A DNA stretch of 64,000 bases from Nostocaceae cyanobacterium (GTDB taxonomy: Bacteria > Cyanobacteriota > Cyanobacteriia > Cyanobacteriales > Nostocaceae), in NCBI GenBank assembly GCA_035298905.1, contig DATGXQ010000126.1:1296-65295 (forward strand). The letters run 5' to 3'. Position 1 is the stretch's first letter. Each line of letters starts with the position of its first letter. A program made the translations under genes and the position numbers. The notes beneath the pieces are model-generated. The model was given only the letters and a program-made list of their open reading frames with translations. It made no database searches and was not told where the DNA came from. Positions 1 to 15,266 of this stretch are shown here, one piece after another.

Positions 1-1081
1 TTGATTCAACAATCTCAGAATCCAATTTAATTGGCTTATTTGTAAGCTCCTGCAACCCCAGTATTGAAGTAGTTATTTCCTCACTATCATCCAGAAGATT
101 TTGAACAATCACTAGCGGGTTTTCATCATCAGAACCAGTAAAGAAACATTTTGATAATTCATCTCGGAGCGATCGCACCAATACCTTATTCTCTTCCTCC
201 AATCTCAACAACTCAGCAATTAATTCTTCTGGACTTGATAAATCTTCATAATCATCATTCTTTAGTTTATTGGGTTCTTCAAATTCAATCTTAGGAATCC
301 CCAGTGTCACGCCCTTGTCAATCACCAAAATGCAGCCACCAACGGGGGTTTCTTTAAAACTTCCATGAGGAATTGTAATCACATGTGCTTTAACAAATTC
401 CAACCATTCCCGGAATTTCTCGGATTTCCAATCACTACCTTTCACCCAAGACTGTGAAGTGATAGTTACTAATCTCCCTGGCTTTGCTAAACACGACCAC
501 ATCTTATAAACATGGTCAATATCCTGATGACCTGAAAACGGTGGATTGGCGATTATTCTTTGATATTTAATCTGTTCGTTGGCTTTGAGAAAATCTTCAC
601 CCAGTAAATTTACATTAGGAATTCCCTGTAAAATTACTCTGTTGCGTTCCATTAGTTCATAAGTGCTGATGCTTGGTAATTTAATCTTGGGGAATTTATT
701 AGCGATCGCCCGGAATATCCCTTTAATAATTTGTCCGTCACCACCGGAGGGTTCAAGAAAACATTGGGGTTGTAAAATATCTTGTTCAGTTAATCCCACG
801 ACTGCAATTTCTAGTAACTTATCCACCAAATTATCTGGTGTTGGTACAAACTGGTAATCTTGCTGAAGATTAATTTGCTCTCCGTTGGCGATTCGGTTTA
901 ATAATTCACTAGGGTCATGCTTGAATACAAACCCTTTCTTACTCTTATTCCACTTCCCACCAATACCTTTTAATGCTGCGGCTATTTGTTCGTAAAATTC
1001 TCGCTCAAATTGAATATCCGGGAGCTTCACAACCAAACTATTAACAGTACATTGTTGTAATACTTCCTGAACTGTGTGCAT
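1..1081 (-). CDS. N6-adenine DNA methyltransferase (5' end complete; 3' end runs off the window start)
   Basis: Own minus-strand translation from the ATG (revcomp of 1079-1081) stays open to position 1. SAM motif I FLEPSGGDGQ (revcomp ~731-760) precedes catalytic motif IV IANPPF (revcomp 536-553), both in frame with the start. Absent from the ORF track because there is no stop in the window. Confidence 0.8.
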   Translation of the reverse strand, partial: MHTVQEVLQQCTVNSLVVKLPDIQFEREFYEQIAAALKGIGGKWNKSKKGFVFKHDPSELLNRIANGEQINLQQDYQFVPTPDNLVDKLLEIAVVGLTEQDILQPQCFLEPSGGDGQIIKGIFRAIANKFPKIKLPSISTYELMERNRVILQGIPNVNLLGEDFLKANEQIKYQRIIANPPFSGHQDIDHVYKMWSCLAKPGRLVTITSQSWVKGSDWKSEKFREWLEFVKAHVITIPHGSFKETPVGGCILVIDKGVTLGIPKIEFEEPNKLKNDDYEDLSSPEELIAELLRLEEENKVLVRSLRDELSKCFFTGSDDENPLVIVQNLLDDSEEITTSILGLQELTNKPIKLDSEIVES

Positions 1082-1136
1082 ATTTAATACCCTGAAAATT
1101 AATCACATCAAACTCAGGAAGCGGTAGCCAAGATAA

Positions 1137-2675
1137 TTACTTTCTCAAGGCATTCTCTAACATCTTTTGCCAGTCATTATTATTCAAACTTGCACTTTTT
1201 ACCCCATTACTTACAGCCCAGTTATGCAATGCTTTAATTTGATGTTGGGCAACGCTGGCTAAGGGAACTGTGGATGCGATCGCTCCCAAAACATCCCCCT
1301 GCTCAAACTCCCGACCTTCTGAAAACCCCTGGTACATTGCATCAATCACACATTGCTCAATCTCAGCACCGGAGAAATCCAAAGCTTTTTCAGCTAGTAA
1401 ATTACAGTCAAATTTTGCTATTTCAGATTGTGGTCTGACTTTGGATAAATGCACGTAAAATATCCGCGCCCGCTCCCTCTGTGTGGGTAAATCCAAGAAA
1501 AACAACTCATCATAACGTCCCTTTCTGAGTGATTCTGGTGGTAAATTTTCAATTCTATTGGCAGTGGCAATTATGAATACCGGACTGGTTTTTTCCTGCA
1601 TCCAGGTAAGTAAAGTTCCTAATACCCTGCTGCTTGTTCCCCCGTCCCCGCCGCTATTACTGAACGCCTTCTCAAATTCGTCTAGTAGTAAACAACAGGG
1701 TGCAATCGCCTCAACCAAACTAATCATTTCACGAGTTTTGGCTTCACTTTCCCCAACTAATCCACTGAATAATCTGCCTATATCTAGCCTTAACAACGGA
1801 AGATTAAAATACCCTGCAATAGCCTTGGCAACTAAACTTTTACCAGTTCCGGGAATCCCAAATAAAAATAGACCTTTTGGCTGAGGTAAACCATATTCTC
1901 TCGCTTGCTGACCAAAAGCATCGCGTCGCACCTGAATCCAATATTTTAGGTTGTCCAGTCCACCAATATTGTTAATATGAATATTTGGTTGTAGAAATTC
2001 CAATATTCCTGTTTGTTTAACGGTTTCATGCTTTTGGGCAATCATCAGAGCGATCGCATCCTGGTCTACCTTGTTTTTGGTTAAGCATTTCCGTAAAACC
2101 TGAACAATTTTGGCTCTACTCAATCCTTGGCAGCTTCTTACTAATTGATCTAGGGGTTCATCTCTGAGTTTTAGTTTTGAAGCAGGAACAAGCCCAGTAA
2201 TTAATTCGTATATTTCACTGATACCGGGATACCCAAATTCAACTACTGCTGTTTCTTGTGTAATTTCAGTGGGAATTTGCAAGGTGCTTGTTATTAAAAC
2301 TAAAGTAACTCGTTTTCCTTCTAGCTCTTTACACAGATTTTTTAACTCCCGAACAATCGCCAACTGTTGAGGCTGATAATTACCGCCTCCCGTCTTAATT
2401 AAATTGGCAATATCCTTGAATACCACCAAACAAGATTGGTTTTTATCAAAGATTCCTACTTTCCCTAACGCACTCATGGGATTCCCCTTGTCGGAGTTCT
2501 CCGGGTCATGCTGCCATCCCCGACTGTAATCCCAAAAGTAAATTTGAGATTTGGTGTCTTGGGCGATTGCTGCTAAACTCTCTTCAACTAATCTTTCTTC
2601 TGGAGAAACCACCCAAATCAATGGGAATCTGGCTTTTAGGCAAAGTTTGATTTCTTGGTTAGTATCAGTTTTCAT
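1137..2675 (-). CDS. AAA+ ATPase with a degenerate N-terminal domain and a classical C-terminal AAA module (Ycf46-like)
   Basis: Walker A GIPGTGKS and Walker B LLLDEFEKAF. The N-terminal FPLIWVVSPEERLVE...YFWDYSRGW resembles my memory of cyanobacterial/plastid Ycf46. Lies 55 bp upstream of the methyltransferase on the same strand. Confidence 0.75.
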   Translation of the reverse strand: MKTDTNQEIKLCLKARFPLIWVVSPEERLVEESLAAIAQDTKSQIYFWDYSRGWQHDPENSDKGNPMSALGKVGIFDKNQSCLVVFKDIANLIKTGGGNYQPQQLAIVRELKNLCKELEGKRVTLVLITSTLQIPTEITQETAVVEFGYPGISEIYELITGLVPASKLKLRDEPLDQLVRSCQGLSRAKIVQVLRKCLTKNKVDQDAIALMIAQKHETVKQTGILEFLQPNIHINNIGGLDNLKYWIQVRRDAFGQQAREYGLPQPKGLFLFGIPGTGKSLVAKAIAGYFNLPLLRLDIGRLFSGLVGESEAKTREMISLVEAIAPCCLLLDEFEKAFSNSGGDGGTSSRVLGTLLTWMQEKTSPVFIIATANRIENLPPESLRKGRYDELFFLDLPTQRERARIFYVHLSKVRPQSEIAKFDCNLLAEKALDFSGAEIEQCVIDAMYQGFSEGREFEQGDVLGAIASTVPLASVAQHQIKALHNWAVSNGVKSASLNNNDWQKMLENALRK

Positions 2676-2701
2676 GGCTTATTTCATGGCTTATGCCTGA
2701 C

Positions 2702-2932
2702 TTAAACAATTGCAGTAAAGTATTTAACTTGTCCCAAAGATTTATTTAGTGCTGCTGCAAAATTCATTGCTGCCTCTTCGTTCATTCTCTGCACACTCGT
2801 CCGATCGCTTGTCCATCCTTTCCTACCATCAGCAAGATATTTTTGTGAAGTCAAGTCAATCACAGTAAATATTGGCAAACTCATTGGAATCCTTGATTTA
2901 CTCATGGCATCCCCCAAAACTATTGAATGCAC
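2702..2932 (-). CDS. hypothetical small protein
   Basis: 76-aa ORF ending 26 bp upstream of the AAA gene start, same strand. No recognisable motif. Confidence 0.4.
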   Translation of the reverse strand: MHSIVLGDAMSKSRIPMSLPIFTVIDLTSQKYLADGRKGWTSDRTSVQRMNEEAAMNFAAALNKSLGQVKYFTAIV

Positions 2933-2964
2933 ATATTGGTAATTTGCTTAAACTCTTGTTGTAA

Positions 2965-3030
2965 TCCCGGAATCGGAATTAGAATTCTTGGAAATTCCCG
3001 GAATCGGAACTATAGGAAATTCCCGATTCT
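2965..3030. promoter_or_regulatory. iteron-like direct repeats (TCCCGGAATCGGAA x2 plus a partial third; GGAAATTCCCG x2)
   Basis: TCCCGGAATCGGAA at 2965-2978 and 2996-3009. GGAAATTCCCG at 2990-3000 and 3015-3025. Intergenic, between the 376-aa and 76-aa ORFs. Confidence 0.4.
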
Positions 3031-3054
3031 CGTACTCGTTAATATCCGTCACTG

Positions 3055-4098
3055 CTAACTCACACTTACAGGCTGTTGGTTTTTATTTCGCTTGGGTTGA
3101 GGCTGAGATTGCTGCATTTCTTGGATTTGCTGCTTGAGTTGTGCTATTTCCTGGTCTTTTTCAGCCAGTAAAGCATCGGTGTCTACGTCTACTGCTAGGA
3201 TGCTGCTGCCCTTTACCTGCTGAGTCTGTAAATTAATGACTGTCTGATTGGCTTGCTCTAGTTGCTGCCGGAGTTCTGCGACTTGATTCTCCACTACAGC
3301 TTTTTCACCTTCAACTTTCTTGAGTTCTTTGATTTGCGCCTCCAACTGAGTCTTGTTTTTCTCTAACCCTTCGATCGTTCCCTGTAGTCTGGCAATCTGG
3401 TTATTTAACTCCCGCTCTGTCTGGTCATGAGTTGCCAGCCTTGCTACTTGTTCCTCAAGTTCCTGATTTCTGGTTAGCAACTCTCTTTTTTCGTCATCAA
3501 ACTTATTAAGTTTATTCCTTATATCTTCGGACTCTGCCAACTTCTGGGTATTTAGCTTAATGTAAGCATCTTTTAGTTCAGTGTTTACTCTTTCGTACTC
3601 CCTTTGATACCACCCCCGCTCATAGTCTAATGTTGGGTATCCTTTCAGTTTTTCATTTGCTTCATCTAACTGTTTGGTTAATTGTGCTATTCGATCACCT
3701 GATATACTGCTATCAGCGACTGAATATGCTTGTGAATATAAAAGCCTAGTAAATCTTTCACTTAAAAGCTTAAACTCTTCTGGGATTTCCAAATTTTCGG
3801 GGACGTGGGTAGCGATAGTCTGCTCTAACCCTTCTAAAATCCCATCCCCTGTTTTTACATTCTTAATAGCCTTCAGGTTATTGCGTTTCCAGTCCTTAAG
3901 CAATTGACAGCATCGGGAATTACTTATCCCTGAACCAAATATTTCCTTTAAAGCTGCCTGTACTTTCCCTATCTCCAATGGTATCTTATTAGCCAACAGC
4001 ACTCTACAAGCAAAGTCTACTGTTTCTTCATTAGCTCCGAAATTTTTATAAGCTGCCTCGGTGTCAAATCCGTTTAAATTTAACTGTAAGATATTCAT
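3055..4098 (-). CDS. coiled-coil protein with a KfrA-like N-terminal DNA-binding region
   Basis: The ORF extends to 4185, but the ATG at 4098 (MNILQLNL...) follows a GGGGGGAA Shine-Dalgarno. The C-terminal ~250 aa is a heptad-rich Q/E/K/L coiled coil. The N-terminus resembles plasmid KfrA_N from memory. Confidence 0.55.
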   Translation of the reverse strand: MNILQLNLNGFDTEAAYKNFGANEETVDFACRVLLANKIPLEIGKVQAALKEIFGSGISNSRCCQLLKDWKRNNLKAIKNVKTGDGILEGLEQTIATHVPENLEIPEEFKLLSERFTRLLYSQAYSVADSSISGDRIAQLTKQLDEANEKLKGYPTLDYERGWYQREYERVNTELKDAYIKLNTQKLAESEDIRNKLNKFDDEKRELLTRNQELEEQVARLATHDQTERELNNQIARLQGTIEGLEKNKTQLEAQIKELKKVEGEKAVVENQVAELRQQLEQANQTVINLQTQQVKGSSILAVDVDTDALLAEKDQEIAQLKQQIQEMQQSQPQPKRNKNQQPVSVS

Positions 4099-4142
4099 AT
4101 TCCCCCCCATATACTTAATTTGATACCTGCGCTTGCGTTTTT

Positions 4143-4199
4143 TGTTCTCTACACGTATCATATAAGTGAAAGGAAGAGGTGTCAATATTGTTCTCTATA
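4143..4199. promoter_or_regulatory. two copies of an 11-mer operator candidate (TGTTCTCTACA, TGTTCTCTATA) upstream of the KfrA-like gene
   Basis: 4143-4153 and 4189-4199, between the XRE gene stop (4225) and the probable KfrA-like start (4098). Confidence 0.35.
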
Positions 4200-4224
4200 A
4201 GAATCAAAAGTAAAACTTGACAAA

Positions 4225-4605
4225 TCAACGAATCTCGTTCATCCGGTCGGCTACTACGCGCAAAATCAAGTGTAAATCTTTTCTGGGGAGTAATTGAATC
4301 TGCTGTATTACTTTAGTCGTTGGTGACTCATTTTCACTATCTCTCTTGCCATTTAAGTAATCTAAGAATTCATTTAGCGATTCACCACGCATGGCAGCCA
4401 ACTTCTCTAGGTTTTTCGTGGACGGAATTGACTCCCCTTTTTCCCAGGCAGAAACAGCGCTATAGACAATAGGGAATTTTTTACCAAACTCACGGTAACT
4501 TTCGTCACCACGAAGTTCCTTAACAACCTTGGCAAGACGCTTTTTGTATTCCGAGTTCATCGTTTCTTCACAGAGAACAAGTTTCATCTTAACTGAAATT
4601 GACAC
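4225..4605 (-). CDS. XRE-family helix-turn-helix transcriptional regulator
   Basis: LRGDESYREFGKKFPIVYSAVSAWEKGESIPSTKNLEKLA is a typical HTH_3 pattern. The real start may be the ATG at 4560 (MNSEYKK). Confidence 0.75.
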   Translation of the reverse strand: MSISVKMKLVLCEETMNSEYKKRLAKVVKELRGDESYREFGKKFPIVYSAVSAWEKGESIPSTKNLEKLAAMRGESLNEFLDYLNGKRDSENESPTTKVIQQIQLLPRKDLHLILRVVADRMNEIR

Positions 4606-4617
4606 TTGTAGAGAACA
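4570..4617. promoter_or_regulatory. inverted copies of the same 11-mer (ACAGAGAACA, TGTAGAGAACA) upstream of the XRE gene and in the divergent promoter region
   Basis: TGTAGAGAACA at 4607-4617 is the exact reverse complement of 4143-4153. A 10-nt variant lies at 4570-4579. Confidence 0.35.
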
Positions 4618-4687
4618 GTAATGGTATGTATCTTTTGCTGGTTAACTGACGCTTTTTTGAGACTTACAAACAACAGGAGCAAAATGT

Positions 4688-5041
4688 ATGAAGCACAAAG
4701 GAAACTCAAGACACAAAAAAGAATCAAGAGTCTCTCCGGCAGGAAGAGAGTACATCCAGATATCTTTGAGAAGTGAAATAGCTCAAGCAGTTAGGGAACA
4801 CGCTGAAGTCAACGGAAAGTACATCAGTTACATGACTGATGCCGCCTTTGCAATGTACCTGGGCATTGCGTTAAATGATGCTGAGATTCCTGAATTGATG
4901 CCTGTAAACATTCCTAGTAATCTTTGCTTAGAGTTGTCGGCGATCGCTTCTCGCACAGGAATCTCTAGAGAACAACTAATTAATACAGCGATTACTCAAT
5001 ACCTAGAAAGCTTGAAAAAGGTTCTTCCTGTAGCATCTTAG
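4688..5041 (+). CDS. hypothetical protein with two ribbon-helix-helix-like segments
   Basis: REYIQISLRSEIAQAVREHAE and LCLELSAIASRTGISREQLINTAITQYL both look like a beta strand followed by a helix (RHH units). Divergent from the XRE gene. Confidence 0.45.
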   Translation: MKHKGNSRHKKESRVSPAGREYIQISLRSEIAQAVREHAEVNGKYISYMTDAAFAMYLGIALNDAEIPELMPVNIPSNLCLELSAIASRTGISREQLINTAITQYLESLKKVLPVAS

Positions 5042-5190
5042 ACTTAATTGCGGGATATATAAACTAACTCAACAATCCAAGGTTTCTGTCTATCTCAAGA
5101 CTGATATTGAGTGTTTTCCTCGAATCTTGCAGTCAATCTTTCAAAACCGCTCATCAAACAAATCGCTACACCCGGAAAATAGAGGCAAAT

Positions 5191-8100
5191 ATGACAGCCC
5201 AAGTTAATCAATTTCCTGAAGATTCCAACTTATTTGGAGGCTCTTTGGATAGTTCCAACGAGTCTAGCGAAGCACCAAGACAAGATGACATAGCTCATGA
5301 TGCTGGGACTGATTTGGGTGCTGGTTGTGAATCTGAACTCCCCCTAGAAGAACGCCTCACCCAAAGACTTAGCCAATTCTCATTCAAGACGGAAGGCAAT
5401 AATCGGTTCGAGAATTTCGACCACTTCAAAGCCTATATTCGTCATAACTTTATAGTAGGGAGTGCAGTTGACCCGGAATTATTCAACTCTTGTGTTCAGT
5501 TTGTGGAATCCCAATCATCAACATTATGGGGTGACTGGGAAGCACCGATACATGATGCACTGGGTTGGAATTTTAAGAGATTTGCCCACCAGTGTGATGA
5601 ATGGCTTTATGCTGCCCTTTTGAGAAATGAAGATGGTTCAGTTTGGCAAGCAGTCGTAAGCCTTTGGGATGAGAAAACCGGAAAGTATTACCGTTACTTA
5701 GCTCCAAAAGGTTCAGGCGATCGGGCGTTCTTTCCCCATGTACCCCAAGAATTATTTGAGAAAATCACCAAACGTTATAAGCATCAACCAGATGAGGATG
5801 TTTCATTTTGGGAATGGCTAGAACTTTCTTCTGGTGTCCCCCGTATCCGTACAGAGGGAGCAAAGAAAGCACTTTCATTACTGAGTCATGGGTACGCGGC
5901 GATCGCTGTTTACGGGTGCAGTTGCGGGGCAAAGGCTAAAGATGTCTTGGGAAATCCGGTACGCCCCTACTTAACAGACGATTTGGAAAAATTTGCATCT
6001 GCCGGCAGCATTTGGTTAGATGCCCTGGATGCCGATGAGAAGGAAAAACCCCGGATTGCGGTCGCCAGAGGTAAGAAGATACTTCGGCAAGCGCTGACTT
6101 CAAAGGGATGCTATGTAGCTGACATCAGGTGGCAACATTCCGAGGGTAAAGGTGTTGACGACTTTATAGTGAACCAAGGTTCAGCTGCTTTCGATGCTGC
6201 TTATGGGGACGCGGTGCGACGGGCGAAATATCAGCAGAGATTAGACACCGGTGAAGTGGCCAAAAGCGACAACAAAAAATTCTTGCAGTTGGTGCGGGAT
6301 AGATGGGGCGATCGCTTGACCTTTAACGAGATGACCCAAGAAATTGAATTTGATGGCAAACCCATAGACCCTGACACCATCAAGATGTTTGTGGCGGACA
6401 AACTGGATGTTGACGCATCTAACGACACAATTCTGCAAGCATTGATGACTGTGGCCAAAGAAAACTACAGTTATCATCCAGTCCGGGAATACCTACAAGA
6501 AATTGCTGAAAAATACCCGCGTAGTGAGGAGTTAGATAGGTTATTGGGGTCGATCGCTTCTCGTTATCTGGGAACTTCCCACCCACTACACAACACATTC
6601 CTGAGAAGAACCCTAATCGGTGCGGTAAAACGAGTTTTTGAGCCTGGGTGCAAGTTTGATACGGCTTGCGTGCTTCAGGGACGGCAGGGGATTATGAAGT
6701 CTAGCTTTTGGAAAACCCTGGCCAAAAACGATAAGTGGTTTGATGACACATTTTCGTCGTCAAGTGCAGCAATTGACAAGGATGAAAAAGCGGCACTAAG
6801 AGAGAATTGGATTATTGAGTTGTCAGAGATAGAAGCTGTTTTTAGGAAGAAAGAAGTAGCTACTCTACGAGCTTTCATGACAACAGCGATTGATCGTTAC
6901 AGACCTCCCTATGGTAGAAAAAATGGGAAATTCCCCCGGACATCTATATTTGTGGGAAGCGTAAACCCCGACTCATTTTTATGCGACCCGGAGGGTCATC
7001 GTAGGTATTGGGTTGTTCCGGTTCAGGTTGAAAAAATTAATATTAACGCACTAAAAGAAGAGTCCGATTTACTTTGGGCTGCTGCTTATCATGCCTATGC
7101 GGCGGGGGAAACTGTTTTCTTAAATCATGAGGAGGAAAAAATTAATAAAGTTCTCAACAAAATGTATGAAGACCGGGACATCTGGGAAGAACCAATAATC
7201 TTTTATTTGCAAAATGAATCCCGCGTCACCGTCAGTCAAATTATTAGTCAATGCCTAAAAATTCCCGAAGGACAAGCTGAGAAAAAACACGAACTGCGGG
7301 TTGTCCAAATCCTCAAAGCCCTCAACTGGGTGAAGGAAGGTAAACGCTCCCGGTCTGGTAGTAAGCGCGTCCAGTATTGGATTGAAGACAAAGCGCAACA
7401 GCAGTTTGAAGATGCCATCTTGGATGAAGTTTATGACATGATGCAGCAACCGCAAAGTGAATTAACTGCTGACCCCGCTAGTTTTTGTGGACGTACCCCG
7501 GAAATTGAGTTTGGTTGTCCTACGGATAGTCCAAACGGGGTAAATACTCAAAGCCCTTGCATTGGTTGTGTTTCAGGGGTTGATAATCCAGGTATAAATA
7601 AAGTACGTCCTACGGATAGTCCAAGCTCAAACCCAAGCGGGGTAATCATTTCAGAGATTTCTTCTGAAAATTACTCAAAAAATATAGGAGAACCAAATCC
7701 CAACACTAATAATCACCAGAACCTACAAAATTCTAATTTTTCACCAGTCCACTACGTCCAAGAACCCCAAAGCCTTGCCAACTCTGAATTTGAGGCTGGA
7801 CGTACCTCAAATAACCGTGCAATTGAGATACAAGTCCGAAAACTAGAAGGTGCTGTTGATTCCTACATATCTGATGAAATAGCCAGACGGGTCTATGGGG
7901 AGTATTTTGAATCCACAAAAGAAAATGAGAGCGATCGCACCGCCATTTGGAATGCCCTGAAACCGGAAACACAGAAGTATTACACCGATTTATTTCACCC
8001 GTTGGCTGAGAAGTTCCCAGTTAGTAGATATGTGAAAGTTAGAGACACATTTGACCGGAATATGTACCACGTCTCGCAAATTACTGGGTACTTTAGTGAA

Positions 8101-8211
8101 ACCCAAATTAATGTAACTGGGAAACACCTAAACGGCACAATAAAAGTTGCTAATTGTCAGTTGTTGAGTGACCAACAAGTAATGAAATTAAGAGCAGCTA
8201 AAAAGTTATAG
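5191..8211 (+). CDS. primase-helicase of a mobile element (DUF3854/Toprim-like N-terminal region plus VirE/VapE-type P-loop domain)
   Basis: P-loop GRQGIMKSSFW, followed by EIEAV...LRAFMT...YRPPYGR, which is typical of VirE/VapE. The N-terminal GAKKALSLLSHGYAAIAVYGCSCG...VDDFI is Toprim-like. The ATG at 5191 has an AGAGG SD; the ORF track starts at a TTG at 5107. Confidence 0.75.
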   Translation: MTAQVNQFPEDSNLFGGSLDSSNESSEAPRQDDIAHDAGTDLGAGCESELPLEERLTQRLSQFSFKTEGNNRFENFDHFKAYIRHNFIVGSAVDPELFNSCVQFVESQSSTLWGDWEAPIHDALGWNFKRFAHQCDEWLYAALLRNEDGSVWQAVVSLWDEKTGKYYRYLAPKGSGDRAFFPHVPQELFEKITKRYKHQPDEDVSFWEWLELSSGVPRIRTEGAKKALSLLSHGYAAIAVYGCSCGAKAKDVLGNPVRPYLTDDLEKFASAGSIWLDALDADEKEKPRIAVARGKKILRQALTSKGCYVADIRWQHSEGKGVDDFIVNQGSAAFDAAYGDAVRRAKYQQRLDTGEVAKSDNKKFLQLVRDRWGDRLTFNEMTQEIEFDGKPIDPDTIKMFVADKLDVDASNDTILQALMTVAKENYSYHPVREYLQEIAEKYPRSEELDRLLGSIASRYLGTSHPLHNTFLRRTLIGAVKRVFEPGCKFDTACVLQGRQGIMKSSFWKTLAKNDKWFDDTFSSSSAAIDKDEKAALRENWIIELSEIEAVFRKKEVATLRAFMTTAIDRYRPPYGRKNGKFPRTSIFVGSVNPDSFLCDPEGHRRYWVVPVQVEKININALKEESDLLWAAAYHAYAAGETVFLNHEEEKINKVLNKMYEDRDIWEEPIIFYLQNESRVTVSQIISQCLKIPEGQAEKKHELRVVQILKALNWVKEGKRSRSGSKRVQYWIEDKAQQQFEDAILDEVYDMMQQPQSELTADPASFCGRTPEIEFGCPTDSPNGVNTQSPCIGCVSGVDNPGINKVRPTDSPSSNPSGVIISEISSENYSKNIGEPNPNTNNHQNLQNSNFSPVHYVQEPQSLANSEFEAGRTSNNRAIEIQVRKLEGAVDSYISDEIARRVYGEYFESTKENESDRTAIWNALKPETQKYYTDLFHPLAEKFPVSRYVKVRDTFDRNMYHVSQITGYFSETQINVTGKHLNGTIKVANCQLLSDQQVMKLRAAKKL

Positions 8212-8278
8212 CGCGTTTGCTACCGCTTCTGGATTTTGGCGAATTTGAAGTATCTTACTGCTCCACCAGAATTACAAA

Positions 8279-8334
8279 TTTTGAGTTTTGAGTTTTGAAT
8301 TTTGAATTTTGAGTTTTGAATTTTGAATTTTGAC
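8279..8334. repeat. STRR heptamer array (TTTTGAR) x8
   Basis: Eight perfect-phase 7-bp units read directly. Confidence 0.95.
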
Positions 8335-8347
8335 TTCCGGGGTAATC

Positions 8348-8569
8348 ATGGCTAAAGAAAGTTTTCAACAATTACTACAAAGAATAGCGGCTGCTCACCT
8401 TGACCGCAAAACCCAGCAGTACATCAAATCACTAGAAAATGTTGCCCAAACAGCAAAACTGGTGATTGAGTCCAGTAATTTTGGAAATACCGAATCACAG
8501 CAATCGGAATTACAGCCATTAAAACTAGCGTTACAGCAGTTGGAATTGGAGGGCGCGAATGCCTCGTAA
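8348..8569 (+). CDS. hypothetical small protein
   Basis: ATG at 8348 just past the heptamer array; the track ORF begins at a TTG inside the array. Confidence 0.35.
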   Translation: MAKESFQQLLQRIAAAHLDRKTQQYIKSLENVAQTAKLVIESSNFGNTESQQSELQPLKLALQQLELEGANAS

Positions 8570-8855
8570 AAAAGCTAGTAGCAACGAAACCGGAATTTTG
8601 ATTTTGGAGAGTTCCAATTCTGGAAGTTCTAGTAATTCCAGCAATTCCACCAATTCCAAGTATGGAAACTGTCATATTTGTAAGTCCCCGTACCTAACTC
8701 CCGGCTTGGATTCTAACTATTGCCCCAAGTGCGGATGGGTTTTCACGTTGGAGTATTTGAGGTTTCTGCAAGAACAGGAACAGTCAAAGAAAAACAAGAA
8801 AGGGAAAAACTCTAAAACTGTTGATGATGAAGTAATTCAGGGTATTTATGATTAA
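8559..8855 (+). CDS. hypothetical zinc-ribbon protein
   Basis: CHIC...(12 aa)...CPKC four-cysteine motif. S/N-rich low-complexity N-terminus. Confidence 0.4.
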   Translation: MPRKKASSNETGILILESSNSGSSSNSSNSTNSKYGNCHICKSPYLTPGLDSNYCPKCGWVFTLEYLRFLQEQEQSKKNKKGKNSKTVDDEVIQGIYD

Positions 8856-9048
8856 TTTTGTGGATGAGGAAACCGTAGAAGCGGCGATCGCTCATAACGA
8901 GCAATTAACAAGTGAGTGTCACCAATTAGTAGATGCAGTAGCAAATCAGAAGTATTCACGGAAACTGCTAACGCTTGTTAAAAGCCTTCTTGAGAGTTGT
9001 CTTGATTACAAAGCCAATCGAATACATCAACCTGCGATTAGACAGTAA
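8848..9048 (+). CDS. hypothetical small protein
   Basis: 66-aa ORF whose start overlaps the preceding stop by 8 nt (coupled arrangement). Confidence 0.35.
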   Translation: MINFVDEETVEAAIAHNEQLTSECHQLVDAVANQKYSRKLLTLVKSLLESCLDYKANRIHQPAIRQ

Positions 9049-9078
9049 TTCAAAAGTATTTAGTAAAGGAATAGTCAA

Positions 9079-10137
9079 ATGTTCAACACCACAGGGATTC
9101 AACTGGGGTTATTTGATAATGCCAAACATCCAATTCAGATTCTGCGAGAACAACCAGAACCCGACCCCCGAAGTCCAATTGTTGTTAGTTGTGGGGGTGG
9201 GCGCAATTCGACTTATTTGTTGATTCGGTTGTGGCAGCAGGGCATCAAACCCGACTTAATACTGTTTGCTGATACTGGTAACGAAAAACGAGCGACCTAC
9301 GAATACATAGAAATGTTTTCCGGGTGGCTTGTTGAAAGGGGTATGCCACCGATTATCACGGTGCGGAGGAAACCTACGAAAGTGTCGAGCGATCGCAAGG
9401 GATTAATCCGAGTTAACCAAGCTATGGCAGCATGGAGGAATTTATTTTCCAAAACACCGATTAGTCAATGGCTAGATGGTTATTCTTGGTTAGCTTGGTG
9501 GAAATCCAAAGAAGGTGCTGTGTGGACTACGCTGGCTGAGGAATGTATCATTACCGGAACGCTTCCTAGTAAAGCCTATGGGCGATCGAATTGCTCTCAA
9601 ATCTGGAAAATTGAACCCCAGGAACTTTATGTCAGGGACTACATGCTTGAGAGAGGACTGTGGTACAGAAAGGGACGTTCCATCATTGCTGACGTGAAAG
9701 TTCGTAAGTTTATTGGATTTCACTGTGAAGAGGTTTCCCGGTTAATAAGTAAACAAACAGGTCAGATGCGGGAACTTGAGGATAAATTTTATCGGTATGA
9801 GTACCCCCTGATGGTGGACATGATTAATAATCTGGATTGCCAAGTGGGAATCCTAGCCGCAGGGTTGCCAATACCACCAAAGTCTAGCTGTGTGTTTTGT
9901 CCACGTTCTCGCAAAGAAGAGATTGATAATTTATCTCCAGAAGACTTAGAACTTGCGTTATTTATCGAGTGGAATGCCATGAATAGCCCCAATTGGCGGG
10001 GTGAGGGATCATCAATCAAAGGGTTAGGGCAAAGATTGAACTGGACTGATTATGTAGCGGGGAAAGTTAGTGAAACAGAATTAGCAGCGATCGCTCACCG
10101 CCAAGCCCAAATGTCCTGTAATTGTATTGACGATTAA
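9079..10137 (+). CDS. PAPS-reductase-family PP-loop protein (mobile-element type, not CysH)
   Basis: PP-loop-like VVSCGGGRNSTYLL, then LFADTGNE. C-terminal cysteines SSCVFCP and CNC. Confidence 0.65.
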   Translation: MFNTTGIQLGLFDNAKHPIQILREQPEPDPRSPIVVSCGGGRNSTYLLIRLWQQGIKPDLILFADTGNEKRATYEYIEMFSGWLVERGMPPIITVRRKPTKVSSDRKGLIRVNQAMAAWRNLFSKTPISQWLDGYSWLAWWKSKEGAVWTTLAEECIITGTLPSKAYGRSNCSQIWKIEPQELYVRDYMLERGLWYRKGRSIIADVKVRKFIGFHCEEVSRLISKQTGQMRELEDKFYRYEYPLMVDMINNLDCQVGILAAGLPIPPKSSCVFCPRSRKEEIDNLSPEDLELALFIEWNAMNSPNWRGEGSSIKGLGQRLNWTDYVAGKVSETELAAIAHRQAQMSCNCIDD

Positions 10138-10144
10138 ATAACTA

Positions 10145-10360
10145 TCAATTTACTGGTTTGATTTTCAACCACCAACCAGACTTTCTACGACCGCAAAGCC
10201 AAGCCTCAGCAACTATTGTTTTTTCGATGTACCAAGTGTAATGACCAAGTGAACCCTCTACAGCAGTAATCCCATCATAATTTTGCTTGACAATTTCAGT
10301 TGCATCATTGATGGTTGCTGCCCAGATTCTTTTTGATTTGAAGAAATATGTTTCTCTCAT
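10145..10360 (-). CDS. hypothetical small protein
   Basis: 71-aa ORF; the only long frame in this interval. Confidence 0.35.
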   Translation of the reverse strand: MRETYFFKSKRIWAATINDATEIVKQNYDGITAVEGSLGHYTWYIEKTIVAEAWLCGRRKSGWWLKIKPVN

Positions 10361-10381
10361 AGCAATTTACAGGGAAATCAA

Positions 10382-10777
10382 ATGACTCTAACTGAACTCC
10401 GCAGTATTGTTTGGATACTTGCTAATTCAATCCCTACTCGTTACTGGGTGCATTGGAATTATCCTGCTGTTCCCGAAAAAATGGCCATTTATTGTCAAGG
10501 TAAGGTTTATGAAGGGGACTTGATTAGGAAAGGATTCACAAAGGAAATCCACAATAGAAAAGTTTATTGGGTAATAGAACGAACCCCGGAACCGGAATTA
10601 CCAGAAATTCCAAAAGTTCTAGAATCGGAATTAGAATTCCCAAAAGTTCCAGAAAACGAGACAGAAACCCTAGAAGATTTTCTTAATGCCCACCTTGAGA
10701 ACACAGTAGAGTTTAGATTCCAGCAAAATACTAATGGTGAAATAAACTGCTTTTCTACGGATAACCCATTGAATTAG
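10382..10777 (+). CDS. hypothetical protein with a P/E-rich internal repeat
   Basis: 131-aa ORF. Contains the 18-mer GAATCGGAATTAGAATTC (10622-10639), which is also present intergenically at 2970-2987. Confidence 0.35.
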   Translation: MTLTELRSIVWILANSIPTRYWVHWNYPAVPEKMAIYCQGKVYEGDLIRKGFTKEIHNRKVYWVIERTPEPELPEIPKVLESELEFPKVPENETETLEDFLNAHLENTVEFRFQQNTNGEINCFSTDNPLN

Positions 10778-10827
10778 TTGGCTGCTGCTGGTTGAATCGC
10801 AATAACTGGAATTACAAAATAACGAAT

Positions 10828-11265
10828 ATGACAACGAAACCCAAGAATCTATTAATTAGCATTCATCCCAAGCCAATCAAAAAGATTATCAGTGGAAGTA
10901 AAGATATTGAAATTAGGAAAACCAAACCCAATATTAAAAAGGGTGATAATGTTTGGGGGTATGCTACACGTCCCGAATCCAGTTTGAAAGTAAAATTTGA
11001 ATGCGGCGGGGTAATTGAATGCGAGAAATCCAATTTTTGGTTGGAGTACGGCAGCCGCATCGGGATTACCAAAGATGAATTTGAAAGCTATTTATCTGGC
11101 AAGATGATGGTTTATGGAATAATCGTGAGCAATTTAACTGTTTTTGATGTTTCTTTGGTGGCATTGAAACAAATACCCGCATTTGAATACTTCCAGCCAC
11201 CCCAGGGGTTTTATTATCTGAGTGATGACCAAATTTCGGAGCTAAACAAATATTTAAAAGCATGA
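10828..11265 (+). CDS. ASCH-domain-like protein
   Basis: ISIHPKPIKKIISGSKDIEIRKTKP is a typical ASCH N-terminal strand pattern. ATG at 10828. Confidence 0.5.
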   Translation: MTTKPKNLLISIHPKPIKKIISGSKDIEIRKTKPNIKKGDNVWGYATRPESSLKVKFECGGVIECEKSNFWLEYGSRIGITKDEFESYLSGKMMVYGIIVSNLTVFDVSLVALKQIPAFEYFQPPQGFYYLSDDQISELNKYLKA

Positions 11266-11270
11266 ATAAT

Positions 11271-11726: not shown

Positions 11727-11736
11727 ATATTAAATA

Positions 11737-11782
11737 AAAGCGATCTCTTCTGGGGTTTCCATTGGCGATCGCTTATTTTTTG
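11737..11782 (+). terminator. hairpin plus T-run, candidate intrinsic terminator (paralogous to 11271-11315)
   Basis: AAAAGCGATC...CCATTGGCGATCGCTTATTTTTT. The 8-bp stem AAGCGATC/GATCGCTT is built on a HIP1 site. Confidence 0.5.
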
Positions 11783-11971
11783 CTTATATTGCTAAGTTAT
11801 GTTAACACAAACACCTTACTAATGAATTAGCAGAGGAGTTGAGAAAAATTGCCGGGGAGAACAACAGAAAAATATCAACAATGGGGATGCTGCTTTTACA
11901 GGAAACGATCGCCAACCATGCAAAACAAAACCAAAATGATATGATTGTGCGGTAGTATTTCTAACTTCAAG

Positions 11972-12493
11972 ATGCAGCGAATTATTAAGTTTTTGGTGGT
12001 TCTGGTAATTCTGTTTTCCACACAAATATACCCAGTCAATGCAGAAGTAGTGAGGGGAAGGATTGTTGCAGCAATCGATGGGGACACCTTAATCGCATTC
12101 ATAAATAATAATCAGGTATCCATCCGGCTAAACTGTATTGATGCCCCAGAGTTAGCCCAGTTCTTTGGAGTGGAATCTAAAACTAAACTTGCTAAGTTAA
12201 ATGGTGTTAATGCTGAGTTTGATGTTAAGGGAGTTGACAAATACAATCGCCTAATTGCAGAAGTGTTTGTAGGCAAAGACCGTCATAATGTAAATTCTGT
12301 GATGGTGAGGGATGGGATGGCTTTTGTATACAGAGAGTATCTGAGAGAATGTCCGGCGATCGCACCCCAGTTAATCAAATACGAACAATTAGCCAAACAG
12401 AAAAGATTGGGTTTATGGAAACAGAAAAACCCCGTGATGCCTTGGGATTATCGGCATGGAGAAAGTAATGATAGCGTTGGGTTTAAATCATGA
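11972..12493 (+). CDS. secreted thermonuclease (staphylococcal nuclease, SNase-like)
   Basis: Signal peptide, then VVRGRIVAAIDGDTLIAF...IRLNCIDAPE...YNRLIAEVF, the canonical SNase pattern. Confidence 0.8.
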   Translation: MQRIIKFLVVLVILFSTQIYPVNAEVVRGRIVAAIDGDTLIAFINNNQVSIRLNCIDAPELAQFFGVESKTKLAKLNGVNAEFDVKGVDKYNRLIAEVFVGKDRHNVNSVMVRDGMAFVYREYLRECPAIAPQLIKYEQLAKQKRLGLWKQKNPVMPWDYRHGESNDSVGFKS

Positions 12494-12705: not shown

Positions 12706-12706
12706 C

Positions 12707-12901: not shown

Positions 12902-13109
12902 CTCGTCTCCATAACATCAAAATTTGATTAATCTTATTTCTTCCTAAAAAGCTAATGCGTCATACCAGCAAAAGTCTTAAGATTCATGAAATCTTGCGAA
13001 GATTACTTAATATTGAGCAGTTGCTTCTTAATAAGATTTGTGAAGTTAAAGGCAAAGAAATTTAACAGGGAACACCTAAGTATTTTGTGATTTTCCTCCA
13101 TGCTGCAAG

Positions 13110-14603
13110 TTAAATTTTTAACTTAACCTCTACCACCTCACCATTTAAAATGACTACTGATTGAACAAGCTCACGATAGATGCGCTTTTTGTCTTCATCG
13201 GAGCAATTTTTCCAACATTCCGGGTCAGAGAATGCCCAAGTTAAAAGTTCTATAGAAGCAGAATTGATTTGTTCTGGAGTCTGCTGATACTGAAAAGCCA
13301 ATATCTGGTTTTCGATTTGGGTGATCGCATCTCGAATAGCTGGATTGGGAGCAATTGAATTTATCTGCTGCATCTGGGCAAGCTGGGATTCCAGTTTTAG
13401 CAGTTCTGGTGGTTTGGGGTTTTCTTTGGTTTCCGGCACTTGGGCAAGCTGGGCGATCGCTTCAGCACGCTGGGTTAACTTTTCAACAACGGCATTCTCA
13501 ACGATTTCCATGCGAATAGTTTTCTTGTTAGTACAGCTGCGAGTAGTCCAGTTTTTGCATTGAAAATAATAATTGCGCTCAAAAGGAATCCCCAAGCGTT
13601 TAGCTCTGTAATGATTTTTTATTCCTGAAAGCGAGTAACAAGCTCCCCGGCATTCAGCGCAAAATATTGATCCCGAAAGTGGGTATTTAAGTGCCGTGCT
13701 GCCATACCCTCGGACTTGTTTATTGTGAGCTAGAATGCTTTCAATTTCCTTAAATTCTGCTTCAGTGATTAGTCTTTCATCAGGATGAGTATCGTAGTAA
13801 ATTTCCGGCTCTCTGCCCTTGGCTGTCTGTTTTTTTCTTAAATATCCAATGTGTCCTCGGAGAATGGGATTTGTTAGCCAATTACTTAACCCAGATGTGC
13901 TAAATCTAAATACATCCCTAGCTGCCCGTCCGCCTTTTTTCTTTTCACCCAGGGCATTGTTGCGAGCAAAAGTTTGGATGCCGTATTTTTCATTAATTTC
14001 TCTTAGTGTTAACCCCAGAGAACGCTTTTCAAAAAACGCCTCAATAATTTCCCCAGCGATCGCTGCCCTAGTCATTTCTTGTTGGTTTTTAATCAAACAC
14101 AAAAACGGTCTGTCGTCCAGGCAGGGTTTATCATCAATCTTTCTGTAACCAAATGGAAGAATGTGAACTACTAGATTCTTCCGAGCATTTGCCCAACCAT
14201 GTCGAACTGATTCAGCCTTTTGGTCACTGTGAAGTTGAGCAAAAACAGCAAGCTGCCCTGCCATTGCTCGACCAGCAGCAGTAGTTAGGTCAAATGGTTC
14301 ATCAAGAGCGCGAAGAATTACACCAGAACTTGAAAATAAATCAAAAATTTGGAAACTCTTGACCCCCCGACGTGACAACCGATCAACGCGGGTAACAATC
14401 ACTTCATTTACGTGCTTTAACCTCACCATCCCTAAAACCTGATCTAATTGAGGACGGTGATTATCTTTCCACCCGGATTCCACATCCTTATAAATTTCTT
14501 CAGCACCAGCAGCTATTAATCTGTCAATCTGCTGTTGCAGGGCATTAGAGTTATTTGCTTGCTCAAGGCTGGAAACCCTAGCATAGCCAACTATTTTGGG
14601 CAT
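13110..14603 (-). CDS. large serine recombinase (resolvase/invertase N-domain, recombinase domain, zinc ribbon and coiled coil)
   Basis: IVGYARVSSLEQ carries the catalytic serine. VTRVDRLSRR, a cysteine cluster CAECRGAC...C...C and a C-terminal coiled coil follow. Sits about 40 bp from the element/comM junction. Confidence 0.9.
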   Translation of the reverse strand: MPKIVGYARVSSLEQANNSNALQQQIDRLIAAGAEEIYKDVESGWKDNHRPQLDQVLGMVRLKHVNEVIVTRVDRLSRRGVKSFQIFDLFSSSGVILRALDEPFDLTTAAGRAMAGQLAVFAQLHSDQKAESVRHGWANARKNLVVHILPFGYRKIDDKPCLDDRPFLCLIKNQQEMTRAAIAGEIIEAFFEKRSLGLTLREINEKYGIQTFARNNALGEKKKGGRAARDVFRFSTSGLSNWLTNPILRGHIGYLRKKQTAKGREPEIYYDTHPDERLITEAEFKEIESILAHNKQVRGYGSTALKYPLSGSIFCAECRGACYSLSGIKNHYRAKRLGIPFERNYYFQCKNWTTRSCTNKKTIRMEIVENAVVEKLTQRAEAIAQLAQVPETKENPKPPELLKLESQLAQMQQINSIAPNPAIRDAITQIENQILAFQYQQTPEQINSASIELLTWAFSDPECWKNCSDEDKKRIYRELVQSVVILNGEVVEVKLKI

Positions 14604-14642
14604 TTTCTGATAAAGTAATAGTGTACATTTAGTATTGTATAT

Positions 14643-15266
14643 ATGTTTCTTGACGAATTAAGCGAATTTAAGCGCGATGTATTAGAGTTTCTGCGCCAAC
14701 CTTTGGAAGATGGTTTTGTAACAATTTCTCGCACGAAACAATCTGTAATGTTTCCTGCCCAGTTTACTTTGGTGGCGAGTACCAATCCTTGTCCTTGTGG
14801 TTATTATGGTGATACTATTCAACAGTGTACCTGTTCACCGCGACAAAGAGAGCAATATTGGGCGAAGCTTTCTGGACCATTGATGGATAGAATTGATTTG
14901 CAGGTGGCTGTAAATCGCTTGAAGCCGGAGGAAATCACCCAGCAAGCTACAGGAGAACCATCAAAAGTTGTGAGGGAAAGGGTACAAAAGGCACGCGATC
15001 GCTCTCTGCACCGTTTCCAAAATGAAACAAATCTGCGTTGCAATGCCCAAATGCAAAGTAGCCACTTGCAAAAATGGTGCAAACTCGATGATGCTAGTAG
15101 GAACTTATTAGAAGCTGCAATCAGAAAATTAGGGTTATCAGCTAGGGCAAGCGATCGCATTCTCAAAGTAGCACGAACGATCGCAGATTTGGCAGGGGAT
15201 GAGGAACTCAAACCCCAACACGTAGCAGAAGCTATTCAATATCGTACAATTGATCGAATGCAGTGA
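14643..15266 (+). pseudogene. comM: 3' fragment of comM/yifB (Mg-chelatase-like AAA+ competence protein), truncated by the element
   Basis: Begins at (L)FLDELSEFKRDVLEFLRQPLEDGFVTISR...NPCPCGYYGD, i.e. from the Walker B motif onward. The N-terminal roughly 300 aa are missing. Confidence 0.85.

What the first reader, a model, noticed from the sequence alone, without database searches (positions are those of the whole stretch)
1..15266. comM is split by a plasmid-like element at least 14.6 kb long, with a large serine recombinase at its edge
The ORF at 14643-15266 is only the C-terminal part of ComM/YifB, so an inserted element has replaced the upstream part of the gene.
- Everything to the left is accessory-type: primase-helicase, KfrA-like protein, XRE/RHH regulators, orphan methyltransferase, nuclease.
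- A 497-aa large serine recombinase ends about 40 bp from the junction.
- In heterocyst-forming cyanobacteria, gene-interrupting elements with an edge-located recombinase are excised developmentally (the fdxN element with XisF is the serine-recombinase precedent).
- comM is a known island integration hotspot in other phyla.
- I see no capsid, tail, relaxase or T4SS genes in the visible part, so the element looks like an integrated replicon rather than a prophage or ICE.
Basis: partly seen in the sequence, partly recalled or inferred. Interest (0 to 1): 0.7.

Follow-up and report, generated by a model that had tools for sequence, protein, structure and literature searches.

The report
Serine-recombinase mobile element splitting comM
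A mobile, plasmid-like DNA element at least 15.8 kb long has been inserted by its own serine recombinase into the competence gene comM of a Nostocales cyanobacterium; this is a new example of a known kind of event, not a special developmental device.

Summary
ORF 14643-15266 encodes only residues ~305-510 of ComM/YifB. A 497-aa large serine recombinase (LSR) begins 42 bp from the break, and everything to the left is accessory DNA. An independent read-based assembly shows the same junction.

- **Intact gene is the norm:** all 80 best-matching Nostocales species have an uninterrupted comM, and their DNA homology to the window starts at 14644-14647.
- **The recombinase family targets this site:** every relative I could evaluate (37-63% identity) either sits at the same Walker-B codons of comM or is in an unintegrated attP form. 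One lineage was found in both states (97.6% identical). This places the crossover in TTTCT (window 14646-14650).
- **A syntenic relative has both halves:** they join into a 509-aa ComM.
- **The window's 3' half shows no decay.**
- **Cargo:** the replication protein matches cyanobacterial plasmid replication proteins. No capsid, tail, relaxase or T4SS genes are visible.

The developmental-excision idea is not supported. The same recombinase clade splits comM in unicellular Geminocystis, and no XisH/XisI is present.

Not achieved: the 5' half and attL of this genome could not be retrieved.

comM targeting in cyanobacteria by CASTs and a tyrosine-recombinase element is already published.

The parts
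1..14645 (.). Visible right-hand part of the inserted element; it continues at least 1.18 kb beyond position 1
   Evidence: No homology to intact comM loci to the left of 14644. GC is 0.407 against 0.378 for the rest of the window. L001 extends it to the left.
14646..14650 (+). att core TTTCT (Phe codon and first two bases of the Leu codon of Walker B); predicted crossover dinucleotide CT at 14649-14650
   Evidence: The integrated/unintegrated pair L092/L097 is identical up to TTTCT and diverges after it. ATTGT and ACAAT arm motifs lie 22 nt apart and centre on CT. The window has the same ATTGT-N7-TTTCT geometry. The crossover position in the window is inferred.
14604..14645 (+). P arm of attR (element side), containing the ATTGT motif at 14634-14638
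   Evidence: Aligned with the P arms of L106, L090, L091, L092/L097, L095 and L096.
13110..14603 (-). Large serine recombinase, 497 aa, XisF clade; the element's integrase
   Evidence: Pfam Resolvase, Recombinase and Zn_ribbon_recom. NCBIfam recomb_XisF 445 bits against a cut-off of 375, covering the whole model. Relatives sit at the same comM site.
14643..15266 (+). comM/yifB 3' fragment (native codons from 14646; the ATG at 14643 is element-derived)
   Evidence: It deviates at 1 of 139 columns that are invariant in 77 intact orthologs.
5107..8211 (+). DUF3854 + VapE primase-helicase-type replication protein, 1034 aa
   Evidence: Pfam. 46-53% identical to the VapE protein of Nostoc sp. UHCC 0302 plasmid. 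Hits on 74 Nostoc plasmids. The N-terminal part is similar to a protein annotated CyRepA1 plasmid replication protein.
4225..4605 (-). HTH_3 (XRE-type) regulator, divergent from the next gene
   Evidence: Pfam. Homologs in L096, L099 and L106.
4688..5041 (+). Ribbon-helix-helix (CopG-like) regulator; weak match
   Evidence: Pfam RHH_1, E = 4e-4.
3055..4185 (-). Coiled-coil protein, 376 aa, conserved in related elements
   Evidence: phrog_36553, E = 2e-61. Homologs in L090 and L106. No Pfam family, including KfrA.
1137..2675 (-). AAA+ ATPase, 512 aa
   Evidence: Pfam AAA. phrog_8638, E = 2e-152. 55% identical homolog at the same position in L106. Weak IetA-like hit.
1..1081 (-). Methyltransferase-like gene (381 aa in L001), cut by the window edge
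   Evidence: PHROG DNA methyltransferase families and a weak Eco57I hit.
8330..9048 (+). Three small ORFs (79, 98, 66 aa) conserved in related elements
   Evidence: Homologs in L090, L091 and L106.
9079..10137 (+). PAPS-reductase-like protein, 352 aa
   Evidence: phrog_424, E = 2e-23; weak Pfam PAPS_reduct. 49% identical homolog in L106.
10792..11265 (+). 157-aa protein of phrog_3136 / candidate defence family PDC-M11B
11945..12493 (+). Staphylococcal-nuclease-type nuclease, 182 aa
   Evidence: Pfam SNase, E = 4e-19. Homolog in L094.

Best explanation
This is the right-hand end (attR) of an integrative, plasmid-like mobile element at least 15.8 kb long.

**How it got there.** The element's own XisF-clade large serine recombinase recombined an attP on the circular element with an attB inside comM. 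The attP has a centre that mimics the Walker-B codons. The attB lies at the codons for Phe305-Leu306 (core TTTCT, probable crossover dinucleotide CT).

**Effect on the host.** Integration separates the Walker A half of the ComM helicase from the Walker B and C-terminal half. This should abolish ComM function, which in other Gram-negative bacteria is branch migration during natural transformation.

**Reversibility.** Serine recombination is conservative, so excision would rebuild comM exactly. Excision presumably needs an unidentified directionality factor.

**Life outside the chromosome.** The element carries a plasmid-type primase-helicase replication protein and divergent regulators, so the excised circle could probably replicate.

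**Shown:** the break, the recombinase, the family-wide site specificity, the attP forms in relatives, and the lack of decay.
**Inferred:** the crossover position in this window, loss of ComM function, mobility of this particular copy, and episomal replication.
For: - **Break position:** inside Walker B, with homology to 80 intact comM loci starting at 14644-14647.
- **Independent assembly:** the junction is reproduced in L104.
- **Recombinase relatives at the same site:**
  - L090, L092, L095, L096 and L106 lie divergently next to a comM 3' half.
  - L093/L094 and Geminocystis L006 lie next to a comM 5' half ending ...LFL.
  - L091 and L097 are unintegrated attP forms.
- **One lineage in both states:** L092 (integrated) and L097 (attP) are 97.6% identical over 1100 nt, starting exactly at the junction and diverging after TTTCT.
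- **Syntenic relative:** L106 shares the gene order (recombinase 62%, AAA 55%, PAPS-like 49%, coiled-coil 38% identity). Its two comM halves (P0358 + P0021) join into 509 aa that align end to end with intact ComM.
- **No decay:** the window's 3' half deviates at 1 of 139 invariant columns, against 0-2 in functional genes.
- **Plasmid-type replication protein:** 46-53% identical to a Nostoc plasmid protein, with 74 Nostoc plasmids hit.
- **Nothing phage- or conjugation-specific:** no capsid, tail, terminase, relaxase or T4SS hit in any ORF scanned.
- **Absent from IMG/VR:** no recombinase relative and no attP signature.
Against: - The 5' comM half and attL of this genome were never seen, so integrity of the left end, the total size and the mobility of this copy are unproven.
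- The unseen left part could hold structural or transfer genes.
- Two cargo proteins have their best family matches in phage protein families (phrog_8638, phrog_36553).
- No partition genes and no directionality factor were identified.
- The window's comM has Ser where all 77 orthologs have Thr (DELS instead of DELT), 11-13 nt from the predicted crossover. This could impair the site.
- That P0358 and P0021 lie on one contig is inferred only from matching contig lengths.
Confidence: 0.78

Rival explanations
1. Developmentally programmed interruption element. The element stays in comM in vegetative cells and is excised by the XisF-like recombinase during heterocyst (or akinete or hormogonium) differentiation, restoring comM only in that cell type, as XisF does for fdxN.
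For: The recombinase passes the NCBIfam XisF equivalog model. It lies at the element's edge inside an ORF, as in the interruption elements of Hilton et al.. The host is a Nostocales cyanobacterium, judged by synteny and identity. The 3' half is undecayed, as expected if excision is selected for.
Against: The same recombinase clade splits comM at the same codons in unicellular Geminocystis sp. NIES-3709, and that enzyme also passes the XisF model. No XisH or XisI was detected in the element. comM has no known heterocyst role and is absent from the 25 interrupted orthologs listed. Heterocysts are terminally differentiated, so restoring a recombination helicase there has no obvious benefit (inference). 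Unintegrated attP forms with replication genes point to a mobile lifestyle.
Confidence: 0.07
2. Phage satellite or defective prophage. The element is a PICI- or tycheposon-like satellite, or the replication-and-regulation arm of a prophage whose structural genes lie beyond the window.
For: The layout resembles a satellite: integrase, divergent HTH/RHH regulators, then a primase-helicase. The AAA ATPase and the coiled-coil protein match phage protein families strongly. The Geminocystis element at the same site carries a Sipho_Gp157 gene. The primase-helicase is swapped for a D5_N/DUF5906 type in L106, which is typical module shuffling. Prophages do abut comM in other cyanobacteria (L138).
Against: No capsid, portal, terminase, tail or packaging gene in 15.8 kb. 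Phage homologs of the AAA and VapE proteins are only ~30% identical and come from unrelated hosts, whereas the replication protein is 46-53% identical to a Nostoc plasmid protein. No recombinase relative and no attP signature among 2.9 million IMG/VR contigs.
Confidence: 0.2
3. Immobilised remnant. The element did integrate by the serine recombinase, but the left end or the comM 5' half has since been deleted or rearranged. The 207-codon piece is then a stranded fragment that can never be repaired.
For: The left junction was not found in the window, in the 1.18-kb extension or in any public contig reached. There is a unique Thr-to-Ser change next to the core. No sigma-70-like promoter is predicted upstream of the recombinase in the integrated state.
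Against: The recombinase is full length against the XisF model. The 3' half shows no excess substitutions, frameshifts or stops. The cargo ORFs are all open. In the syntenic relative, both comM halves are intact.
Confidence: 0.12

Closest known systems
fdxN element and XisF of Anabaena/Nostoc sp. PCC 7120
   Same: A large serine recombinase of the same NCBIfam equivalog family, encoded at the edge of an element that interrupts an ORF in a Nostocales genome.
   Different: The target is comM, not fdxN. Identity to XisF-annotated proteins is only ~35%. No XisH or XisI was found. The same clade acts in a unicellular cyanobacterium. Relatives exist as unintegrated attP forms with replication genes.
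Gene-interrupting elements of heterocyst-forming cyanobacteria (Hilton et al. 2016, PMC4874684)
   Same: An element inside a functional gene, with the recombinase gene at the edge. Serine-recombinase variants were also reported there in non-N2-fixation genes and in three non-heterocystous strains.
   Different: comM is not among the 22 + 3 interrupted orthologs listed. No evidence for developmental excision here.
comM-targeting elements in cyanobacteria: type I-B1 CASTs and a tyrosine-recombinase element (Hsieh & Peters 2022, PMC9881144)
   Same: The same target gene in the same phylum. The proposed rationale is also the same: inactivating competence protects the element.
   Different: The integration machinery differs: a serine recombinase rather than guide-RNA-directed Tn7-like transposition or tyrosine recombinases. 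I also saw tyrosine-recombinase pairs at comM (L102, L105).
AbaR/Tn6022 islands in comM of Acinetobacter baumannii, and other comM insertions in Gram-negative bacteria (PMC11441513, PMC12378983)
   Same: Site-specific disruption of comM by a mobile element. This is known to lower transformation.
   Different: Those are Tn7-like transposons (TnsABC/TniQ). No such genes are present here. The phylum is different.
Serine-integrase prophages inserted in host genes that are restored on excision (Listeria A118-type phage in comK; SPbeta SprA in spsM, PMC5499854, PMC3556126)
   Same: A large serine integrase splits a host gene, in one case a competence gene. Precise excision rebuilds it and requires a directionality factor.
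   Different: Those are complete prophages with proven regulated excision. Here no structural genes are visible and excision is untested.
Cyanobacterial plasmids with VapE/CyRepA-type replication proteins
   Same: The 1034-aa DUF3854+VapE protein is 46-53% identical to the VapE protein of a 37-kb Nostoc plasmid. Its N-terminal part resembles a protein annotated CyRepA1.
   Different: Only this one gene is shared with that plasmid. The element here is chromosomally integrated. No ParA/ParB or relaxase is visible.

Membership tests
Large-serine-recombinase integrative element | Encodes a recombinase with Resolvase catalytic, Recombinase and zinc-ribbon domains | tested here: met
   Pfam, all three domains. 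Full-length match to NF041201.
Large-serine-recombinase integrative element | Recombinase gene adjacent to an att site at the element boundary | tested here: met
   The start codon lies 42 bp from the break.
Large-serine-recombinase integrative element | Both attL and attR present, sharing a short core, with host halves that rejoin in frame | tested here: inconclusive
   Only attR is visible in this genome. In the syntenic relative L106, the halves P0358 + P0021 join to 509 aa.
Large-serine-recombinase integrative element | A matching attP on an unintegrated form and an empty attB in related genomes | tested here: met
   Met for relatives, not for this copy. L097 and L091 are attP forms. There are 80 empty attB loci.
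Large-serine-recombinase integrative element | Recombination directionality factor for excision | not testable with these tools
   These factors have no common sequence signature. No candidate was identified.
XisF / fdxN-type developmental excision system | Recombinase meets the XisF equivalog model | tested here: met
   445 bits against a cut-off of 375. The model also accepts the Geminocystis enzyme.
XisF / fdxN-type developmental excision system | Element interrupts fdxN or another heterocyst-specific gene | tested here: not met
   The target is comM, which is absent from the list of interrupted orthologs.
XisF / fdxN-type developmental excision system | XisH and XisI accessory genes present | tested here: not met
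   No XisH or XisI Pfam hit in any element ORF scanned in the window and the L001 extension. The unseen left part was not tested.
XisF / fdxN-type developmental excision system | Excision restricted to differentiating heterocysts | not testable with these tools
   Needs cell-type-resolved PCR or long reads.
Prophage | Capsid, portal, terminase and tail genes | tested here: not met
   None in the visible 15.8 kb. The unseen part was not tested.
Integrative conjugative or mobilisable element | Relaxase and/or type IV secretion genes | tested here: not met
   None in the visible part.
Cyanobacterial VapE/CyRepA-type plasmid replicon | Replication initiator homologous to those of sequenced cyanobacterial plasmids | tested here: met
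   46-53% identity to the Nostoc sp. UHCC 0302 plasmid protein. 74 Nostoc plasmids hit.
Cyanobacterial VapE/CyRepA-type plasmid replicon | Autonomous replication of the excised circle | not testable with these tools
   Needs an experiment. L091 and L097 are unintegrated but are not closed circles.
Tn7-like comM-targeting transposon (AbaR/Tn6022, CAST) | TnsA/B/C and TniQ genes, with or without a CRISPR module | tested here: not met
   No such domains in any ORF.

The most novel reading that the evidence does not exclude
The insertion may act as a reversible switch on natural transformation in cyanobacteria, comparable to 'active lysogeny' at comK in Listeria. A whole clade of XisF-like serine recombinases has evolved attP sites that copy the Walker-B codons of comM. 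Regulated excision under stress, in hormogonia, or in another cell state would restore ComM on demand, while the excised circle replicates as a plasmid. Unrelated tyrosine-recombinase pairs hit the same codons, and published CASTs target the same gene. That convergence would then reflect a phylum-wide conflict between mobile elements and transformation-mediated curing.
Probability: 0.12. Interest if true: 0.75.

Novelty: new member of a known kind. Interest (0 to 1): 0.42.

Why it matters
- **Annotation:** it shows that the 'XisF' label given to cyanobacterial serine recombinases does not imply heterocyst-specific excision. One clade of these enzymes targets the Walker-B codons of comM in both filamentous and unicellular cyanobacteria.
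- **Competence and mobile elements:** it adds serine-recombinase elements to the CASTs and tyrosine-recombinase elements already known to hit comM in this phylum. This strengthens the case that mobile elements repeatedly disable transformation-linked recombination.
- **Practical use:** the recombinase/attP/attB sets defined here offer candidate site-specific integration tools. The attB sequence is present and highly conserved in most Nostocales.
- **Strain genetics:** strains carrying the element may transform or recombine poorly.

Tried and rejected
- **Finding the 5' comM half of the source strain failed.**
  - It is not in the window or in the 1.18-kb extension.
  - The single genome-contig scan returned only intact genes, because split hits rank lower.
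  - Four candidate 5' fragments came from other samples. One of them (L105) belonged to a tyrosine-recombinase element.
  - The cluster listing gave no sample names.
  - All look-ups are now used.
- **An early inference was withdrawn.** I first suspected that full-length comM is rare. The protein search favours short targets, and searches show that intact genes dominate.
- **P0121/P0057 are not an insertion.** They looked like split halves but are one frameshifted, contiguous gene.
- **Plasmid-borne 'XisF' homologs have no comM-like attP.** The homologs at 30-35% identity (Trichormus plasmid B, Geminocystis pGM01) lack such a site.
- **IMG/VR gave nothing relevant.** No recombinase relatives and no attP signature were found. 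AAA homologs there share no other gene with the element.
- **Sequence-signal scans were uninformative.** The promoter, terminator and inverted-repeat scans at the junction showed nothing.
- **Circularity tests were negative.** None of the metagenomic contigs has a terminal overlap.
- **The defence library gave only partial hits**.
- **No tRNA genes** in the window.
Full report
**1. The observation**

ORF 14643-15266(+) matches Pfam Mg_chelatase only from profile position 110 onward, plus the whole Mg_chelatase_C domain. It matches the YifB model TIGR00368 at positions 299-499 of 499. Translation upstream in the same frame gives stop codons and unrelated residues; the ComM-like sequence begins at FLDEL, the Walker B motif. 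Intact orthologs are 509-512 aa, with the Phe of FLDEL at residue 305.

ORF 13110-14603(-) is a complete large serine recombinase with Resolvase, Recombinase and zinc-ribbon domains. Its start codon, not its end, lies 42 bp from the break.

No 5' comM homology exists elsewhere in the window. An independent read-based assembly from SRA run SRR5823602 (L104) has the same recombinase/207-aa ComM arrangement. Contigs L001 and L002 from SRR5823600/02 are 100% identical to window 1-8305. The junction is therefore real. L001 extends the element ~1.18 kb beyond window position 1 without reaching comM, so the element is at least 15.8 kb long.

**2. It is an insertion into a normally intact gene**

A scan of one genome per species returned 80 loci as its best matches, all with uninterrupted comM. 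They come from Nostoc, Anabaena, Nodularia, Dolichospermum, Cuspidothrix, Sphaerospermopsis, Tolypothrix and others. A protein search with a full N-terminal query is likewise dominated by 509-512-aa proteins.

Nucleotide homology between the window and every one of these loci starts at 14644-14647. Downstream synteny is closest to Dolichospermum and Cuspidothrix, so the host is a Nostocales cyanobacterium and the right flank is chromosomal.

The 3' half is not decaying. Of 139 alignment columns invariant in 77 intact orthologs, it deviates at one (Thr to Ser in DELT). Leave-one-out values for functional genes are 0-2.

**3. The recombinase family is specific for this site**

Relatives of the window recombinase were recovered from metagenomes and genomes. 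Every one whose flank could be evaluated falls into one of three classes:

- **Divergent from a comM 3' half that starts at Walker B, as in the window:** L090 (63% identity), L092 (49%), L095 (43%), L096 (46%) and L106 (62%).
- **Directly after a comM 5' half ending ...LFL, reading the same way:** L093/L094 (47%) and Geminocystis sp. NIES-3709 (39%).
- **Unintegrated, next to an attP:** L091 (61%) and L097 (53%).

In L005 (37%) the comM 3' half starts at the same Walker B site, but the recombinase lies ~10 kb away, presumably at the element's other edge, and that junction is not visible.

L092 and L097 are decisive. They are 97.6% identical over 1100 nt, starting exactly at the junction. They are identical from the recombinase start codon through ...CCATTGTCTAGTCATTTCT and then diverge. 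L092 continues into comM (TGACGAATTAACAGAATTC). L097 continues into GAATAGATAGACAATAGCAAG.

That second sequence is the motif seen to the right of the break in the attL junctions of L006, L093 and L088, and in the attP of L091. The same element lineage was therefore sampled both integrated and free.

The arms carry inverted ATTGT and ACAAT motifs 22 nt apart, whose centre is the CT of TTTCT. The window has the same geometry: ATTGT at 14634-14638, seven bases, then TTTCT at 14646-14650. I therefore place the crossover at CT 14649-14650. This placement is an inference.

**4. Both halves exist in a syntenic relative**

L106, from a 132-kb metagenome contig, has the window's gene order:

- on the minus strand: AAA ATPase, a small ORF, the coiled-coil protein and a regulator;
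- on the plus strand: a second regulator, a ~1020-aa primase-helicase and a PAPS-reductase-like gene;
- then the recombinase (minus strand) and the comM 3' half.

Identities run from 30% to 62%. Its primase-helicase is of a different type (D5_N/DUF5906).

A 5' fragment, P0358, is reported from contigs of the same length. Joined to the 3' fragment P0021 at the shared DELT, it gives 509 aa that align end to end with intact ComM. That both lie on one contig is inferred, not shown.

**5. What kind of element**

The 1034-aa DUF3854+VapE protein is closest to proteins of cyanobacterial plasmids:

- 46-53% identity to a 37-kb Nostoc sp. UHCC 0302 plasmid protein;
- hits on 74 Nostoc plasmids;
- an N-terminal part similar to a protein annotated CyRepA1 plasmid replication protein.

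Phage homologs of this protein and of the AAA ATPase are only ~30% identical and come from unrelated hosts. However, the AAA ATPase and the coiled-coil protein do fall in phage protein families.

No capsid, terminase, tail, relaxase or secretion gene was found in any ORF scanned. IMG/VR holds neither recombinase relatives nor the attP signature. L091 is a small unintegrated relative carrying small-ORF homologs of the window element.

I therefore favour an integrative plasmid-like element. A phage satellite remains a real alternative, because the left part of the element is unseen.

**6. The developmental-excision idea**

The recombinase passes the NCBIfam XisF equivalog model (445 bits, cut-off 375). 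So does the Geminocystis enzyme (487 bits), from a unicellular organism that forms no heterocysts. No XisH or XisI was detected. comM is not among the interrupted orthologs catalogued by Hilton et al.. The idea cannot be excluded without experiments, but nothing here favours it.

**7. Comparison with what is known**

- comM disruption by mobile elements is well documented in Gram-negative bacteria.
- ComM is a helicase that drives branch migration in transformation.
- In cyanobacteria, Hsieh and Peters reported type I-B1 CASTs and one tyrosine-recombinase element that target comM.
- Natural competence exists in a heterocystous cyanobacterium.
- I found no paper in the held library linking XisF-type or large serine recombinases to comM.

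The finding is a new member of two known kinds: comM-targeting elements, and serine-recombinase gene-interrupting elements of cyanobacteria.

**8. Limits**

- The 5' half and attL of this genome were not retrieved.
- Mobility, loss of ComM function and replication of the excised form are inferred.
- The crossover dinucleotide is deduced from relatives.

Noticed in passing
L102 (Nostoc sp. HK-01, AP018318.1) 1354-10846: comM is split at a second site, just after Walker A (GKT|MLARRL). The ~8-kb element carries two tyrosine recombinases (375 and 533 aa), DUF6262 and a KilA-N protein. Both halves are visible (225 aa and 281 aa). About 30 of the 120 protein clusters start at this same MLARRL position.
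   Followed up: partly
L105 (Logan SRR25993475) 2235-5872: A comM 5' fragment ends ...GVLFL|FYIH* at the same Walker B codons and is followed by a pair of tyrosine recombinases (391 and 482 aa). Three host lineages share this tail (P0296, P0328, P0356). Unrelated recombinase families therefore converge on the same few codons.
   Followed up: partly
L138 (IMGVR_UViG_3300044900_000004) 9278-10621: A 73.7-kb predicted provirus with structural-looking genes abuts a comM that starts only at native residue ~62. This may be another insertion site near the 5' end of the gene.
   Followed up: no
window 14661-14663: The window's comM reads DELS (AGC) where all 77 intact Nostocales orthologs and all other split copies read DELT. 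This is the only deviation at an invariant position, and it lies 11-13 nt from the predicted crossover, inside the probable recombinase binding site.
   Followed up: partly
P0299 (Cylindrospermum sp. FACHB-282, 490 aa): This protein is annotated as YifB. Its N-terminal ComM domains run into a staphylococcal-nuclease (SNase) domain. This suggests a comM 5' half read through into an element-encoded nuclease like the one at window 11945-12493.
   Followed up: no
L036 19431-19572 and 20467-20577; also L041, L024, L062, L059, L053, L045: Several genomes with an intact comM carry extra 55-140-bp copies of the comM 3' end (homologous to parts of window 15125-15266) 1-10 kb downstream. These may be scars or target duplications left by other elements.
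   Followed up: no
window 15268-15340: Two short tandem heptamer arrays lie directly after the comM stop codon: AATTAAA repeated about four times, then GGGAACA repeated about four to five times.
   Followed up: no
L006 and L093 versus window, L106 and L092: The recombinase gene lies on opposite sides of a homologous attP in the two groups: next to the P' arm and co-directional with comM in one, next to the P arm and divergent in the other. In the first arrangement the recombinase could be read through from the comM promoter.
   Followed up: partly
L003/L004 (GCA_032153685.1, JASEJY010000036.1): comM is called as three consecutive overlapping ORFs (126, 242 and 195 aa) with no insertion. This is a frameshifted gene or an assembly error, and it can mimic a split gene in protein searches.
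   Followed up: yes
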